The notes under the pieces: generated by a model
Seen by the model: the letters and a program-made list of their open reading frames with translations, nothing else
The model's database searches: none
What the model was told of the DNA's origin: nothing
Part shown: positions 23,845-57,968 of the stretch, piece after piece
Layout: every line of letters starts with the position of its first letter
Position numbering within the stretch: position 1 is the stretch's first letter
Position numbers and translations under genes: made by a program
Source of the DNA: the human T2T-CHM13v2.0 reference genome, Homo sapiens
Length of the DNA stretch: 64,000 nucleotides
Direction: 5' to 3' (one strand)
Assembly: GCF_009914755.1 (NCBI RefSeq)
Contig: NC_060929.1

Positions 23845-23941
23845 CTCTGCCTCCTTTGGCTTCTGTCCCTCCCCAAGGAAGAACCCCACAGGAAGGAAGG
23901 AGAAGGCAATGGCTGCTTGGCCTCTGCCATTGGGAGCTCGG
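23845..23941 (+). other. ZFP2: Putative ZFP2 initiator exon (ATG 23909, encodes MAAWPLPLGAR, phase 0)
   Basis: Acceptor ttcccttccctcag (AG 23843-23844); strong Kozak gcaATGG; 33 coding nt; donor CGG|GTGAGC at 23942. Typical pre-KRAB exon. Confidence 0.65.
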
Positions 23942-25556
23942 GTGAGCTCATTTTTCCCTCTCAAACCTCCCCCTTCCTCCTGTACTGCATGTGGGCCTCA
24001 CTGCTCAGGACAGGGTTATTGAAATAGCAGAATGCTGGATATTTTTCACAAAGCCCCCTCTGTGTTCCTGACCTCTGTTCCTAGCTGCCACTTACTCAGC
24101 TGGATACCCTGGCCTGCTGTGTTCTTGGTGCTGTTCAAGGGTCAGAAAGGGAAAAAAGTTATATGCAAGCTGGTGCTGGTGCTTATAGGGCTTATGGGCT
24201 CTCAGGGATCATAAAAGAGGGCACATCTGCATGGTATACAGTCATAATTGCACCTGAATATGGTAATAAGAACAAGTGTGGTTAGGGACCCAGTTTATCC
24301 GTATTCCAAGCTGGAGTGAAGGGGAGGATCAGGGTGGTGGCCAGGAGAAGTAGGTAGTGTTTGCCCATCTCAGGGGTTGGGAAGGGATAACTGGAGAGGA
24401 TTTGTTATAAGGGAGTCAGTGTGTCCAGAGTTTAAATCCCAGCTCTACCATTTAATAGCTACATTGTCTTGGCAAGAGGCTTGGCTTTCCTGAAACATTA
24501 TTTTCTCATGGTCATAATAGGAATTACAGCATTACCTGTCTGCCATATAGGTGACATGAAGAACGTCACCTGGCTGATTTCATTTAATAGTAATAGCTAC
24601 TTCATAGGTCTGTTGAAAGTTCAAATAAAATAATAAAAGTAAAAAATGCCTGGCATGGCTCCTGGAATGTTGAAGTTATTCAGTAAGTTGTAGGCATTCT
24701 TAGTATCATCCCAGCCAAGAGCCTGTGTATAGACTTTTAGAGGTGGACTGAAGGGGGCAGTGACTGATAGTGAGAAATGCTCTGCTGGAGTAGAAGAAAT
24801 CGGATAAAAATTTTAGGACCAAGTGTCGGGAAGGAGGAGTTTGTGTGTTTGGCAGGGTGGTGGCCATGGGGGTGGAGGTCAGTCTGAGGAATTTTGATAA
24901 GGGAGTTCGCACAATCAAAACTTTCCTAGGAAAAAGTAGTGTCCGTGAGATGGAGGGAAGCATGGAGCTGGGATAGTAGGTGAGGATTCCAGGCTTCTCT
25001 GAAAAAGAAAATAAGGCATCAGAAGACTTGGCCCTAACTTCTTTTTTTTTTTTAAGGTTAAACTTACTTAGCCTTGTTGTCTGGAATACTGAAGACTTAA
25101 CGGCATTTTCTCTTCTCATAAAAGTATGTATTAGGGGTCGTTGATTTATTAGGATCACTTGTTTATTTATTAGAGACCAGTTTAAAGAAAGCTTCGTGGA
25201 GGCAAGTATAAACTGTTGTGATTTCCATTTGTACTGCTTTCTTCAGTATTATCAAACTCAGTTATAAAAGGCAAAATAACTTTTAAAATGGGGGTATTGG
25301 ACAAAGGGAGTTTCTGGAAGAGGGAAATGTTGAAAGGGGAAGCATTAAGAAGATTTTGGTTGATGACTGTTGTGGTTTGGTTGTCAGTAACCTACATTTT
25401 AATTTATGTAGCCAAAATAGTGTTAATTTTTAAATCAGCTTTTTCTGAGGCACAGTTTAATAAAATAACCCAATTTAAGCATAGAATTCATTGAGTTTTG
25501 ACAAATTTATGCACCAACATAGCCACCACCTCAGTCAAGGTACAGAACTTTTGCAT

Positions 25557-26128
25557 CACCCCAGCCAGCCAGTGTCCTCGTGCCACTTCTACTCCACGTC
25601 CCCCTCCCCAGCCAGACAGTGTCCTCGTGCTACTTCTACTCCACGTCCCCCACCCCAGCCAGCCAGTGTCCTCGTGCCACTTCTACTCCATGTCCCCCAC
25701 CCCAGCCAGCCAGTGTCCTCGTGCCACTTCTACTCCACGTCCCCCTCCCCAGCCAGACAGTGTCCTCGTGCCACTTCTACTCCACGTCCCCCACCCCAGC
25801 CAGCCAGTGTCCTCGTGCCACTTCTACTCCACGTCCCCCTCCCCAGCCAGACAGTGTCCTCGTGCCACTTCTACTCCACGTCCCCCACCCCAGCCAGACA
25901 GTGTCCTCGTGCCACTTCTACCCCACGTCCCCCACCCCAGCCAGACAGTGTCCTCGTGCCACTTCTACTCCACGTCCCCCACCCCAGCCAGACAGTGTCC
26001 TCGTGCCACTTCTACTCCACGTCCCCCATCCCAGCCAGACAGTGTCCTCGTGCCACTTCTACTCCACGTCCCCCACCCCAGCCAGACAGTGTCCTCGTGC
26101 CACTTCTACTCCACGTCCCCCACCCCAG
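25557..26128 (+). repeat. 47-bp minisatellite (VNTR), ~12 copies, inside an old antisense L1 3' end
   Basis: Near-identical units ccccagccag(a/c)cagtgtcctcgtgccacttctactccacgtccccc(a/t); period 47 (e.g. 25574 to 25621). Confidence 0.95.
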
Positions 26129-26579
26129 GAAGTCACTGGTTTGATTTCTGTCCCTACAGTATTGCCCTTTGTAGAACTTCATGTCAGTGAAATCAAACAG
26201 TATATATTATGCCTGGCTTTTTTTGCTCAACGTAATGTTTTTCAGGTCTTTACATGATATTGTGTGTAGTAATAGTTTGTTCCTTTTTGTCTTAAGTAGT
26301 ACACAGTTGAATATACCACCTTTTGTTCATTCACTTGTGACAGACATTTCAAGTTGTTTCCTGTTTTTAGCTATTATGAATAAAACTGCTCTGTACATTC
26401 ATGTATGAGTCTTTTTGTGGATATATACTTTAATTTCTCTTGGGTAAATACCTAGGTCAAGTGTACATTTGACTTTGTAACAAACAGCTAAACTGTTTTC
26501 CAAAGTATATGTACCATTGTACATTCCCTCCTGCAGTATTTGAGAATTCCAGTCGCTCTACATGCTCTTCCATACTTGG

Positions 26580-26990
26580 TGTATCCATTTCCAAGAGCTG
26601 CTGTAATAAAGTGCCACAAATTGAGTGGCTCGAAACAATAGAAATTTATTGTCTCACAGTTTTGGAGGCCAGAAGTCTGAAATGAAGGCATTTGCAGGGC
26701 CTTGCTCTCTGAAACTGGTGGGGGAATCCTTCCTTTACTCTTCCTAGCTTCTAGCTTCTGGTGGTTTGCTGGCACTCTTTGGTGTTCCTTGGTTCATGGC
26801 TGCATCGCTCTAATCCTTACCTCCTTTGTCATCTGATGTTATCCTTATGTGTTCATGTCTTCAAATAGCCGTTTTTCTTATAAGGATACCAGTCATATTT
26901 GAGACAACCTGTTTTCAGATGAGGTCCTATTGCAAGGTACTAGAAGCTGGGACTTCAACATACCTTTTTTGGGGGACACAGTTCATAACA
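26580..26990. mobile_element. MLT1-family MaLR solo LTR
   Basis: gctgctgtaataaagtgccacaaatt...gaaatttattgtctcacagttttggaggccagaagtctgaaat...ggggacacagttcataaca. Confidence 0.75.
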
Positions 26991-55500: not shown

Positions 55501-55559
55501 CCTAGATTATGTTACTTACTTCCTATCATATTTCATTTTATTTACTTCCTATATCATAT

Positions 55560-55890
55560 TTCTTTCTTTTTTTTTCCCTTTCCTTTTTTTTTTTTTTTTT
55601 TTTTTTTGAGACAGAGTCTCACTCTGTCACCCAGGCTGGAGTGCAGTGGTACTACCTCAGCTCACTGCAACCTCCACCTCCTGGGTTCAAGCAACTCTCC
55701 CATCCCAGCCTCCCAAGTAGCTAAGACTACAGGCGCCTGCCACCATGCCCAGCTAATTTTTGTGTATTTAGTAGAGATGGGATTCCACCATTTTGGCCAG
55801 GCTGGTCTTGAACTCCTGACCTCAAGTGATCCGCCTGCCTTGGCCTCTCAAAGTGCTGAGATTACGGCCATGAGCCACCACACCCGGGCT
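55560..55890 (-). mobile_element. Alu
   Basis: Antisense Alu body. Confidence 0.9.
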
Positions 55891-56582
55891 TGACCATATT
55901 TCTTAATCCTCATTTTATATCTGTGACCCTCAGAGCCAGTGAGACAAGTAACTAGTTAAGATGGTGTTAAGAGCCACGGTTTGAATCCAAGTTTGTCTGA
56001 CTTTGAGTCAGCAATCTTTACATTGTGTCACACTGTGACATTTTAGGAAGATTAATTTGGTGTAGGATTCTAGGTGGCCTCGTAGGAGGAAAGAAACTTC
56101 TGGCAGGAATACCAGGTACAGTGTGCAGGGTTTCCTGATCTGCCTTTCCCAATCCCAGCTCTTCTGCATGTGTTTCCTTAGTTCCATCTTCATTATGTAG
56201 CCTACTCCAGTGGTCAGTGCCTTCACTGTCCATCCCTCCTGAATGGGCTCACTCTTTTCTCTGCTTATGCAGTACATCTGCCATCCCCTGCTTTCAGTTC
56301 CCCTGTTATCTTTGGATCAGTTCACTGTTGTTTCTCTCCCTTCCTATTTCTCTACCTAATTTTGGGTACATGTTTGAAAGCTCTCAAATGTGCTCAGCAG
56401 TTATTTTAGTTGATAGCTAGTTTAATTCTCTCATTCCTACCTTATGCAGTTTCCAGTCTCCTAGCACAGAAACCAATGTGCATTTGAATTTTTTTTTTTT
56501 TTCAGACTGGGAGACAAGACTTGAAACCAAAGAGCCAACTCCGAAGCCGGGTATTACTGAAGATTTATGCCATGGGGTAACA

Positions 56583-57968
56583 ATGGAAAGGGAAGGTATC
56601 TGGCATTCTACTCTAGGGGAAACCTGGGAACCTAATAATTGGTTAGAGGGACAACAGGATAGTCATCTGAGCCAAGTGGGAGTTACCCATAAGGAAACCT
56701 TCACTGAGATGAGAGTATGTGGAGGTAATGAATTTGAAAGATGTTCCAGTCAGGATTCAATCCTTGATACACAGCAAAGCATTCCTATGGTAAAAAGGCC
56801 CCATAACTGTAATTCACATGGAGAAGATGCCACACAAAATTCTGAGTTAATTAAAACTCAAAGAATGTTTGTAGGAAAGAAGATCTATGAATGTAATCAG
56901 TGCAGCAAAACCTTCAGTCAGAGCTCATCCCTTCTTAAGCACCAGAGGATTCATACTGGGGAGAAACCCTATAAGTGTAATGTATGTGGGAAACACTTCA
57001 TTGAACGATCCTCCCTTACTGTACATCAAAGAATTCATACTGGAGAGAAACCCTATAAATGTAATGAATGTGGGAAAGCCTTTAGTCAGAGCATGAATCT
57101 TACTGTCCATCAACGAACTCACACCGGAGAGAAACCCTATCAGTGTAAAGAGTGTGGCAAAGCCTTCCATAAGAATTCATCTCTTATTCAGCATGAAAGG
57201 ATTCATACTGGAGAGAAACCCTACAAATGTAATGAATGTGGTAAAGCTTTTACCCAAAGCATGAATTTGACAGTTCATCAGAGAACTCATACAGGAGAAA
57301 AACCCTATGAATGTAATGAATGTGGAAAAGCCTTCAGTCAAAGCATGCATCTTATTGTACATCAGAGAAGCCATACTGGAGAAAAACCCTATGAGTGTAG
57401 TCAATGTGGAAAAGCCTTTAGTAAGAGCTCAACTCTTACCCTACATCAGCGAAATCACACTGGAGAAAAACCTTACAAATGTAACAAATGCGGGAAATCC
57501 TTTAGCCAAAGTACATATCTTATAGAACATCAGAGACTTCATTCTGGAGTAAAACCTTTTGAATGTAACGAGTGTGGAAAAGCTTTCAGTAAGAATTCAT
57601 CTCTAACTCAACATCGGAGAATTCACACTGGAGAGAAACCTTATGAGTGTATGGTGTGTGGAAAACATTTCACTGGACGATCATCCCTTACCGTGCATCA
57701 GGTCATTCACACTGGAGAGAAACCTTATGAGTGCAATGAATGTGGAAAGGCATTCAGCCAGAGTGCTTACCTTATTGAACATCAAAGAATTCATACTGGT
57801 GAGAAACCCTATGAATGTGATCAGTGTGGAAAAGCCTTCATTAAGAATTCATCCCTTACAGTGCATCAGAGAACTCATACAGGAGAGAAACCCTATCAGT
57901 GTAATGAATGCGGAAAAGCCTTCAGCCGGAGTACAAACCTTACACGACATCAAAGAACTCATACGTGA
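56583..57968 (+). CDS. ZFP2: Zinc finger protein ZFP2, 461 aa, 13 C2H2 fingers; final exon begins at 56506
   Basis: Acceptor poly-T/cag (AG 56504-56505). First exonic in-frame ATG 56583 gives [19 protein letters not shown]..., 461 aa as I recall for ZFP2. 13 fingers with TGEKP linkers. Confidence 0.93.

What the first reader, a model, noticed from the sequence alone, without database searches (positions are those of the whole stretch)
23845..57968. Hidden full-length KRAB isoform of 'KRAB-less' ZFP2: four exons splice in frame to a 571-aa protein
Seen: the ATG exon (coding 23909-23941, strong Kozak, phase 0), KRAB-A (37860-37989), KRAB-B (38252-38341) and the finger exon (56506-57968) all have canonical AG/GT sites and matching phases, with no stop. 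The product is [94 protein letters not shown]..., 11+43+30+487 = 571 aa (573 with the upstream acceptor). Known: this is the canonical KRAB-ZFP gene layout, and neighbours such as ZNF354A/B have an 11-codon lead-in as I recall. Also from memory, ZFP2 is annotated as a 461-aa finger-only protein with upstream exons as UTR, and the related ZNF71 has both KRAB and KRAB-less isoforms. Inference: either an unannotated repressor isoform, or a KRAB module caught mid-loss with its frame still open.
Basis: partly seen in the sequence, partly recalled or inferred. Interest (0 to 1): 0.85.

Follow-up and report, generated by a model that had tools for sequence, protein, structure and literature searches.

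The report
Intact but bypassed KRAB exons of ZFP2
The human zinc-finger gene ZFP2, annotated as lacking a KRAB repressor domain, still carries every ancestral KRAB-coding exon intact and in frame, including an unannotated start-codon exon, but no known transcript joins them to the fingers.

Summary
The four exons have AG/GT borders and splice in frame to 571 aa, or 573 aa from acceptor 37854.

The ATG exon is not a chance pattern. A profile built from the ATG exons I inferred for ZNF354B, ZNF454 and ZNF879, each 11 codons long, hits the 64-kb window once, at 23838-23960 (E 2.3e-9; next best 0.23). ZFP2 therefore keeps the whole ancestral five-exon KRAB zinc-finger layout, plus a stop-bearing exon 4 with no counterpart in the paralogue DNA held.

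The KRAB next to the ZFP2 fingers is already in print. The 2023 KZFP census lists ZFP2 with status "no transcript" containing both KRAB and fingers.

ZFP2's KRAB-A is the most divergent in its cluster:
- Pfam 66 bits against 83-94 bits in the paralogues.
- One inserted codon.
- Five private replacements at sites invariant in the paralogues.

In the RefSeq mRNA the KRAB exons are a leader with 8 upstream AUGs.

Whether a KRAB isoform is ever made could not be tested, because no RNA data or mammalian orthologues were available. My best reading is a bypassed module in early decay (0.55). A real minor isoform remains plausible (0.3).

The parts
21179..21240 (+). RefSeq exon 1 (5'UTR) in a GC-rich promoter region. 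It is open in the KRAB frame but has no ATG.
   Evidence: GC 0.63-0.74 over 20800-21800; hub's annotation table.
23845..23941 (+). Unannotated ancestral ATG exon. Acceptor cag|C at 23845, ATG at 23909 with G at -3 and G at +4, 11 codons, donor CGG|gtgagc.
   Evidence: Homology to the paralogues' ATG exons: (nhmmer E 2.3e-9, the only hit in the window).
37854..37989 (+). KRAB-A exon with tandem acceptors 37854 (RefSeq) and 37860 (homologous to the paralogues' acceptor). It is 130 nt from 37860, against 127 nt in 4 of 4 paralogues.
   Evidence: Pfam KRAB 66.2 bits; nhmmer E about 1e-21 to all 4 paralogues.
37935..37937 (+). Inserted ATG codon inside KRAB-A (residue 26 of the exon). It is absent from 4 of 4 paralogues and 3 of 3 solved KRAB chains. 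It starts a 75-codon upstream ORF in the RefSeq mRNA.
38252..38341 (+). KRAB-B exon (90 nt), open in the KRAB frame.
   Evidence: tblastn to the ZNF454 KRAB-B exon, 46% identity over 24 aa with a one-residue gap; nhmmer E 1.9e-7 to 2e-3 in 4 of 4 paralogues. No Pfam hit on its own.
41833..41979 (+). RefSeq exon 4 (147 nt) with strong splice sites. It carries a stop in the KRAB/finger frame at 41913-41915, 64 nt before its 3' end. No homologue was found in the paralogue DNA held.
   Evidence: donor score 10.98; single copy in the genome; best E 0.87.
56506..56582 (+). 5' part of the finger exon upstream of the annotated ATG. It is open in frame and homologous to coding linker sequence of KRAB-containing relatives.
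   Evidence: phmmer alignments begin at query residue 1-4 in P0017, P0088, P0040 and P0124, each of which has a Pfam KRAB upstream.
56583..57968 (+). Annotated ZFP2 CDS (461 aa, 13 C2H2 fingers). Its start is the ninth AUG of the RefSeq mRNA.
   Evidence: (13 zf-C2H2 stretches), and the hub's table.

Best explanation
ZFP2 descends from a canonical five-exon KRAB zinc-finger gene: a UTR exon, an 11-codon ATG exon, KRAB-A, KRAB-B and a finger exon. All of these exons are still intact and mutually in frame in the human genome. The annotated mRNA bypasses this reading frame in two ways. It skips the ATG exon, and it includes an extra exon 4 that carries an in-frame stop and has no counterpart in the paralogue DNA I held. 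The KRAB exons therefore serve as a 512-nt leader with 8 upstream AUGs, including a 75-codon upstream ORF that begins at a codon inserted into KRAB-A. The protein starts at an internal Met of the old linker, giving 461 aa without KRAB. I read the KRAB module as bypassed and in early decay: recently retired, or used at most by a rare transcript. Today it probably acts mainly as a translation-damping leader. Shown: the exon homology, the intact frame, the divergence of KRAB-A and the upstream AUGs. Inferred: that the full-length isoform is rare or absent, that decay has begun, and that the leader damps translation.
For: Ancestral layout: the ATG exon matches the paralogue profile (E 2.3e-9). The acceptor, the first 13 coding nt (12 of 13 identical) and the first 11 intron nt (gtgagctcatt, 11 of 11) align with ZNF354B. 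The KRAB-A and KRAB-B exons have homologues in 4 of 4 paralogues. The finger-exon 5' extension aligns from its first residues with the linkers of KRAB-bearing relatives. Bypass: the only RefSeq transcript lacks the ATG exon and includes exon 4 (hub's table). Exon 4 has a strong donor (10.98), whereas the ATG-exon donor scores 8.6 against 11.0-12.5 in the three paralogues. [quoted passage not shown] A 2021 KZFP catalogue has 0 occurrences of ZFP2 in its 8 supplementary files. Decay: Pfam KRAB is 66.2 bits against 94.4, 83.4, 85.4 and 88.3 in the 4 paralogues. One codon is inserted relative to 4 of 4 paralogues and 3 of 3 solved KRAB chains. There are 5 private replacements at sites invariant in the 4 paralogues (A9S, L20A, L27V, R29G, L39P), against 0, 0, 1 and 3 in the others. 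Positions A20 and A27 and the spacing are reported to matter for repression (PMC8835667, passages). Mouse: 2 of 2 assembled Zfp2 transcripts are scored 'KRAB domain N'. Their finger-frame ORF runs through the KRAB-A and KRAB-B exons out of the KRAB frame (PMC5363842, supplement 1; frame comparison by eye). Leader: 8 AUGs precede the annotated start.
Against: The module is too intact for an old relic. In my simulation, with assumed indel and transition parameters, the 330-nt module stays intact with probability 0.15 at a neutral divergence of 0.04 per site, 0.02 at 0.08 and 0.0003 at 0.16. Coding constraint therefore either lasted well into primate history or still holds. Both length changes seen are multiples of three: one codon in KRAB-A, and one residue in KRAB-B relative to ZNF454. 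The DV, EEW and MLE motifs are all present. At 86 sites invariant in the paralogues ZFP2 changed only 9, with N:S of 6:3. That does not differ from neutral (p 0.33), but 9 changes is too few to test it. Absence from RefSeq, and from the 2023 census's annotation, is not absence from cells, since many KZFPs are expressed in narrow windows. The mouse transcripts do not exclude an in-frame join if the mouse counterpart of exon 4 is skipped.
Confidence: 0.55

Rival explanations
1. A real, conditionally spliced KRAB-ZFP2 isoform. In some cell type, transcripts include the ATG exon and skip exon 4 and are translated from 23909 into a 571/573-aa KRAB zinc-finger protein. The same gene would then yield a KRAB-bearing and a KRAB-less product.
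For: The complete ORF has a strong start context and no earlier AUG. The ATG exon keeps a good pyrimidine-rich acceptor and a usable donor. Intactness is improbable under long neutrality. Only in-frame indels are seen. DV, EEW and MLE are retained. The KRAB score remains far above the Pfam cut-off. KRAB and KRAB-less isoforms of one gene are documented for ZNF71 (PMC8038441, title and abstract in the listing).
Against: No annotated transcript exists (hub's table). Two non-annotated splicing choices are needed at once, against a strong exon 4. KRAB-A is the most divergent of its cluster and has an inserted residue. Mouse transcripts are scored KRAB-less.
Confidence: 0.3
2. A short KRAB-only product. 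Transcripts include the ATG exon and also exon 4, and encode a 113-aa protein (lead-in, KRAB-A, KRAB-B and 28 exon-4 residues) that ends at 41913.
For: Model C gives 113 codons from 23909. It needs only one departure from the annotated splicing.
Against: The stop lies 64 nt upstream of the last exon junction. By the usual 50-55 nt rule (established knowledge, not tested here) the mRNA would be a target of nonsense-mediated decay. There is no transcript evidence.
Confidence: 0.08
3. The ATG exon is a chance ATG-to-GT pattern in a 16.6-kb intron, and only KRAB-A and KRAB-B are real relics.
For: There are 267 mechanical candidates in intron 1, and 4 of the 267 have a donor at least as good.
Against: The paralogue profile finds this place alone in 64 kb on both strands (E 2.3e-9, next 0.23). 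All three single-paralogue queries have their best hit there (E 3e-6, 0.024, 0.47). It shares the 11-codon length, the acceptor position and the donor flank with the paralogues.
Confidence: 0.02

Closest known systems
Cluster paralogues ZNF354B, ZNF454, ZNF879 and ZNF354C (5q35.3 KZFP cluster, 'chr5.2' in PMC10547255 Table S1)
   Same: The exon layout matches. The ATG exon has 11 codons in ZNF354B, ZNF454 and ZNF879. The KRAB-A acceptor is homologous to 37860. The KRAB-B exon is homologous. All are dated to 105 million years in the census.
   Different: ZFP2's annotated mRNA skips the ATG exon and carries an extra stop-bearing exon. Its KRAB-A exon is 130 nt rather than 127 nt and scores 17-28 bits lower in Pfam. 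The ATG exon of ZNF354C was not found in the 9.6 kb held upstream of its KRAB-A. ZNF354A was not examined.
The 'no transcript' class of the human KZFP census (de Tribolet-Hardy et al. 2023, PMC10547255, Table S2). The passages seen also list KRBOX4, PRDM7, ZNF117, ZNF134 and ZNF239.
   Same: [quoted passage not shown] ZFP2 is itself a listed member.
   Different: The census gives no exon model. The intact ATG exon and the exact in-frame join are not stated in the passages or tables I saw.
ZNF71 KRAB and KRAB-less isoforms (PMC8038441; title and abstract seen in a search listing only)
   Same: One KZFP gene is able to give products with and without KRAB.
   Different: For ZNF71 both isoforms are reported as expressed. 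For ZFP2 the KRAB form is only a genomic possibility.
Mouse Zfp2 (Kauzlaric et al. 2017, PMC5363842, supplement 1)
   Same: It has 13 fingers. The upstream exons derived from KRAB-A and KRAB-B are transcribed as leader. The finger-exon stretch before the Met is open and ungapped, with 14 of 24 residues identical to human by eye.
   Different: In the 2 of 2 assembled transcripts, the KRAB-A and KRAB-B exons are read out of the KRAB frame relative to the fingers, and the table scores them KRAB 'N'.

Membership tests
KRAB zinc-finger gene (KZFP) | KRAB-A box matching Pfam PF01352 | tested here: met
   66.2 bits against a cut-off of 20.4, covering profile positions 1-41 of 42.
KRAB zinc-finger gene (KZFP) | Tandem C2H2 finger array downstream on the same strand | tested here: met
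   13 zf-C2H2 stretches in 56508-57965.
KRAB zinc-finger gene (KZFP) | One reading frame able to join KRAB and fingers through canonical splice sites | tested here: met
   571 or 573 codons with no stop.
KRAB zinc-finger gene (KZFP) | A transcript that actually contains both KRAB and fingers in frame | not testable with these tools
   No RNA data here. RefSeq has 1 transcript, without it (hub's table). The 2023 census says 'no transcript'. Current GENCODE could not be consulted.
Canonical modern KRAB-A (TRIM28/KAP1-recruiting) | DV at A7-8 and MLE at A32-34 | tested here: met
   translation. The importance of these motifs is taken from passages of PMC8835667.
Canonical modern KRAB-A (TRIM28/KAP1-recruiting) | Canonical spacing (42-residue A-box exon) | tested here: not met
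   One extra residue after QR, relative to 4 of 4 paralogues and 3 of 3 solved KRAB chains (7w5q, 7z36, 1v65).
Canonical modern KRAB-A (TRIM28/KAP1-recruiting) | Large hydrophobic residues at A20 and A27 (most often Leu) | tested here: inconclusive
   A20 is Ala, where all 4 paralogues have Leu. A27 is Val, as in ZNF10. The effect of Ala at A20 is not reported in the passages read.
Canonical modern KRAB-A (TRIM28/KAP1-recruiting) | Binding of TRIM28 and reporter repression | not testable with these tools
   This needs an experiment. The spliced protein and TRIM28 could not be submitted to the complex predictor.
5q35.3 cluster exon layout | Separate 11-codon ATG exon, homologous between members | tested here: met

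The most novel reading that the evidence does not exclude
ZFP2 is a splice-switchable KZFP. In a narrow developmental or tissue window, transcripts include the ancestral ATG exon and skip the stop-bearing exon 4. The 571/573-aa product carries a divergent KRAB (inserted residue, Ala at A20, Pro at A39) with altered cofactor binding. Elsewhere the same exons act as a uAUG-rich leader that holds down the KRAB-less protein.
Probability: 0.25. Interest if true: 0.55.

Novelty: new member of a known kind. Interest (0 to 1): 0.35.

Why it matters
If the isoform is made, ZFP2 belongs among the testable KZFP repressors. It is one of the census members left without binding data because no KRAB-plus-finger transcript was available to clone, and the exon model here supplies the sequence that was missing. 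If the isoform is not made, ZFP2 is a clean, datable example of how a KZFP sheds its KRAB. The route is exon skipping plus a stop-bearing exon, with former coding exons reused as a leader full of upstream AUGs, and no disruption of the domain itself. Either way this is an annotation-level point about one gene and does not establish a new principle.

Tried and rejected
**Orthologues.** The search for homologous proteins with the ZFP2-specific linker gave 9 word candidates and none significant, so that database seems to hold no mammals. The search of protein representatives returned vertebrate zinc-finger proteins (5753 at E<=0.001). I fetched 11 of the 150 listed. They gave KRAB-bearing relatives and two short ZFP2-like fragments (P0005, P0009), but no full ZFP2 orthologue whose N-terminus could be read. 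Frame conservation across mammals is therefore untested.

**Fossil mRNA.** The non-finger part of the finger exon matches only itself in the genome, so no processed pseudogene records an old splice pattern.

**C12 locus.** The locus at C12:133.18 Mb looked like a possible retrocopy, with a KRAB and fingers in one 568-aa ORF. I rejected it because its linker is unrelated.

**Exon 4 as a repeat.** It is single-copy in the genome search. An old, eroded repeat is not excluded.

**Selection test.** The N:S ratio on the ZFP2 branch was 6:3 against an expected N fraction of 0.77 (p 0.33), which is underpowered. Pairwise dN/dS was 0.43-0.68 for ZFP2 pairs against 0.18-0.57 for the others, so the ranges overlap.

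**Literature.** Searches found no main text describing a KRAB isoform of human ZFP2. ZFP2 has 0 whole-word occurrences in the main text of PMC3971581 and 0 occurrences in the supplements held for PMC6745500. Supplements of bioRxiv preprints, and files not held, could not be seen.

**Closed or unavailable steps.** Structure and complex prediction were not attempted, because the spliced protein is not a letter-for-letter product of the DNA and TRIM28 is not an offered reference.

**Mouse peptide.** The mouse peptide from the paper was compared with the human frames by eye only.

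
Full report
**1. Checking the observation**

- Each internal border has AG before it and GT after it.
- The lengths are 33, 130, 90 and 1463 nt, so the phases fit.
- The join is 1716 nt and translates to 571 residues with no internal stop.
- The upstream acceptor 37854, which RefSeq uses, adds two in-frame codons, giving 573 aa.
- The ATG has G at -3 and G at +4.
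- The exon has its own acceptor at 23845, behind a pyrimidine tract.
- Neither 23845-23908 nor RefSeq exon 1 holds an AUG, so 23909 would be the first AUG of such an mRNA.
- The annotated CDS is 461 aa.

**2. Is the ATG exon more than chance?**

The mechanical pattern alone is cheap. Intron 1 has 267 GT dinucleotides with an in-frame upstream ATG in phase 0. Four of the 267, the candidate among them, have a donor score at least as high as the candidate's. That score uses my own rough matrix with recalled frequencies.

I therefore fetched the neighbouring paralogues from the same genome and ran the same screen upstream of their KRAB-A exons. In ZNF354B, ZNF454 and ZNF879 the candidate with the highest donor score (11.0, 12.5, 12.5) and a full Kozak context is exactly 11 codons long, as in ZFP2. 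These paralogue exons are my inference from the DNA. I had no annotation for them.

Three independent tests then point to the same place:
- An nhmmer profile of these three exons with flanks, built without ZFP2 and searched over the whole window on both strands, gives one hit at 23838-23960 (E 2.3e-9). The next best is E 0.23.
- Each single paralogue query also has its best hit there (E 3e-6, 0.024, 0.47).
- In the reverse direction, blastn of 23800-23990 against 57.5 kb of paralogue DNA finds the ZNF354B ATG exon first (E 2.7e-5, 63% identity over 151 nt).

In the alignment with ZNF354B the acceptor, the first 13 coding bases (12 of 13) and the first 11 intron bases (11 of 11) coincide. The exon is therefore the ancestral ATG exon. 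The 191 bases around the ATG exon (23800-23990) match only themselves in the genome search.

**3. The rest of the module**

- **KRAB-A.** The exon scores 66.2 bits against Pfam KRAB. It has DNA homologues in 4 of 4 paralogues at about E 1e-21.
- **Acceptor.** The paralogues' acceptor corresponds to 37860. RefSeq's 37854 is an extra AG six bases upstream.
- **KRAB-B.** The exon has no Pfam hit on its own. It has DNA homologues in 4 of 4 paralogues (E 1.9e-7 to 2e-3) and a protein match to the ZNF454 KRAB-B exon.
- **Finger-exon 5' extension.** The 77 bases before the annotated ATG are open. A search of the representative library returned KRAB-bearing zinc-finger proteins whose linkers align from the first residues of this stretch: P0017, P0088, P0040 and P0124, each with a Pfam KRAB upstream. 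The annotated start is therefore an internal Met of an old linker.
- **Exon 4.** RefSeq exon 4 (41833-41979) has no homologue in the paralogue DNA held (best E 0.87) and is single-copy in the genome. It carries the in-frame stop at 41913.

**4. What the annotated mRNA does with these exons**

The one RefSeq transcript (hub's table) skips the ATG exon and includes exon 4. Its leader has 8 AUGs before the annotated start. Among them is a 75-codon ORF in the KRAB frame that begins at 37935 and ends in exon 4. That AUG is the codon inserted into KRAB-A. A full-length product needs ATG-exon inclusion and exon-4 skipping together.

| Splicing | First ORF from the first usable AUG |
|---|---|
| ATG exon included, exon 4 skipped | 571 or 573 codons from 23909 |
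| ATG exon included, exon 4 included | 113 codons from 23909; stop lies 64 nt before the last junction |
| ATG exon skipped, exon 4 skipped | 535 codons from 37935; lacks the first half of KRAB-A |

Exon 4 has a strong donor (10.98). The ATG-exon donor (8.6) is weaker than in the three paralogues.

**5. State of the KRAB domain**

- The ZFP2 KRAB-A exon is 130 nt, against 127 nt in 4 of 4 paralogues.
- The extra codon falls right after the conserved QR, both against the paralogues and against 3 of 3 solved KRAB chains (ZNF568, ZNF93 and 1v65).
- The Pfam score is 66.2 bits, against 94.4, 83.4, 85.4 and 88.3 in the paralogues.
- At sites invariant in the four paralogues, ZFP2 has five private replacements (A9S, L20A, L27V, R29G, L39P). 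The others have 0, 0, 1 and 3.
- Passages of PMC8835667 report that spacing, the MLE motif and hydrophobic residues at A20 and A27 matter for repression by a ZNF10-type KRAB.
- ZFP2 keeps DV, EEW and MLE, and has Val at A27, but it has Ala at A20 and altered spacing.
- The Tycko et al. preprint (passages) reports 12 necessary A-box residues. It names only V41 and N45 in the text I saw, and both are present in ZFP2.

**6. Old relic or still constrained?**

The tests on KRAB-A alone have little power:
- ZFP2 differs at 9 of 86 paralogue-invariant sites, with N:S of 6:3 against an expected N fraction of 0.77 (p 0.33).
- Pairwise dN/dS ranges overlap.

A simple simulation of neutral change on the 330-nt module gives the probability of staying intact:

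| Neutral divergence per site | Probability the module stays intact |
|---|---|
| 0.04 | 0.15 |
| 0.08 | 0.02 |
| 0.16 | 0.0003 |

The assumptions are mine: the indel-to-substitution ratio is 0.1, one indel in five is a multiple of three, and only the ATG exon's splice sites are free to change. My recalled figure for the human lineage since the human-mouse ancestor is about 0.16. Both length changes seen are in frame. Coding constraint therefore lasted long after the cluster arose, and either ended within primate history or still holds.

**7. What is in print**

- **2023 census.** de Tribolet-Hardy et al. 2023 (PMC10547255; main-text passages and supplement passages) list ZFP2 in their genome census of neighbouring KRAB and finger hits. 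The entry gives hg19 chr5:178339596-178359694, protein_coding, 105 million years, cluster chr5.2. [quoted passage not shown]
- **A second KRAB-ZFP table.** A table in PMC11458898 also lists ZFP2.
- **A 2021 catalogue.** It has 0 occurrences of ZFP2 in 8 supplementary files.
- **Mouse.** For mouse Zfp2, Kauzlaric et al. 2017 (PMC5363842, supplement 1) give two assembled transcripts scored 'KRAB domain N'.
- **Main texts.** Five searches found no main text describing a KRAB isoform of human ZFP2.

By eye, the mouse finger-frame ORF compares with the human frames as follows:
- It starts in the 3' end of the KRAB-A exon in the human frame-0 reading (6 of 11 residues identical).
- It crosses the KRAB-B exon in the frame-1 reading (9 of 18 residues identical).
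- It then joins the finger exon, where the stretch before the Met is ungapped and 14 of 24 residues are identical to human.

These transcripts cannot encode KRAB-Zfp2. An in-frame join after skipping the mouse counterpart of exon 4 is not excluded.

**8. Verdict**

The adjacency of a KRAB to the ZFP2 fingers is already catalogued. The intact ATG exon and the exact in-frame model are, as far as my searches go, not in print.

Whether the isoform exists could not be tested here, since no RNA data, mammalian genomes or variation data were available. I commit to a bypassed KRAB module in early decay that now serves mainly as a uAUG-rich leader (0.55). A real minor or tissue-restricted KRAB isoform is the main rival (0.3).

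Noticed in passing
window 37879-56582 (RefSeq 5'UTR exons): The annotated ZFP2 start is the ninth AUG of the RefSeq mRNA. The 8 upstream AUGs include a 75-codon upstream ORF (37935 to the stop at 41913) and a two-codon ORF with a strong context ending 3 nt before the main ATG. Translation of the 461-aa protein should depend on leaky scanning or reinitiation.
   Followed up: partly
window 37848-37860: Tandem acceptors lie six bases apart (ttag|tttcag|GAG). RefSeq uses the upstream one (37854), while 4 of 4 paralogues have only the downstream one. Both keep the frame.
   Followed up: partly
window 23822-23941: A second in-frame ATG at 23822, just upstream of the exon's acceptor, would give a 40-codon lead-in if the upstream intron end were retained.
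   Followed up: no
L002 (G000:C12:133175501-133181500), minus strand: A KRAB box and a finger array sit in one uninterrupted 568-aa open frame with no introns, which looks like a retrogene-type KZFP. It was among the best genome matches to the ZFP2 KRAB-A and first finger, but its linker is unrelated to ZFP2's. From memory this may be ZNF891; I did not check.
   Followed up: partly
L008 (G000:C5:179620001-179630000): The locus I take to be ZNF354C, by offset from the census coordinates, has a KRAB-A exon nearly identical to that of ZNF879: 2 nonsynonymous and 3 synonymous differences. No ATG-exon homologue was found in the 9.6 kb upstream.
   Followed up: partly
P0009 (representative library, 217 aa): A mouse-like Zfp2 fragment starts at a different short N-terminal exon and reads the finger-exon stretch upstream of the canonical Met in frame. 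At least one gene model elsewhere therefore translates that 5' extension.
   Followed up: no
P0040 (representative library, 808 aa): This protein combines a KRAB, C2H2 fingers and two homeodomains. It is probably a merged gene prediction rather than a real architecture.
   Followed up: no
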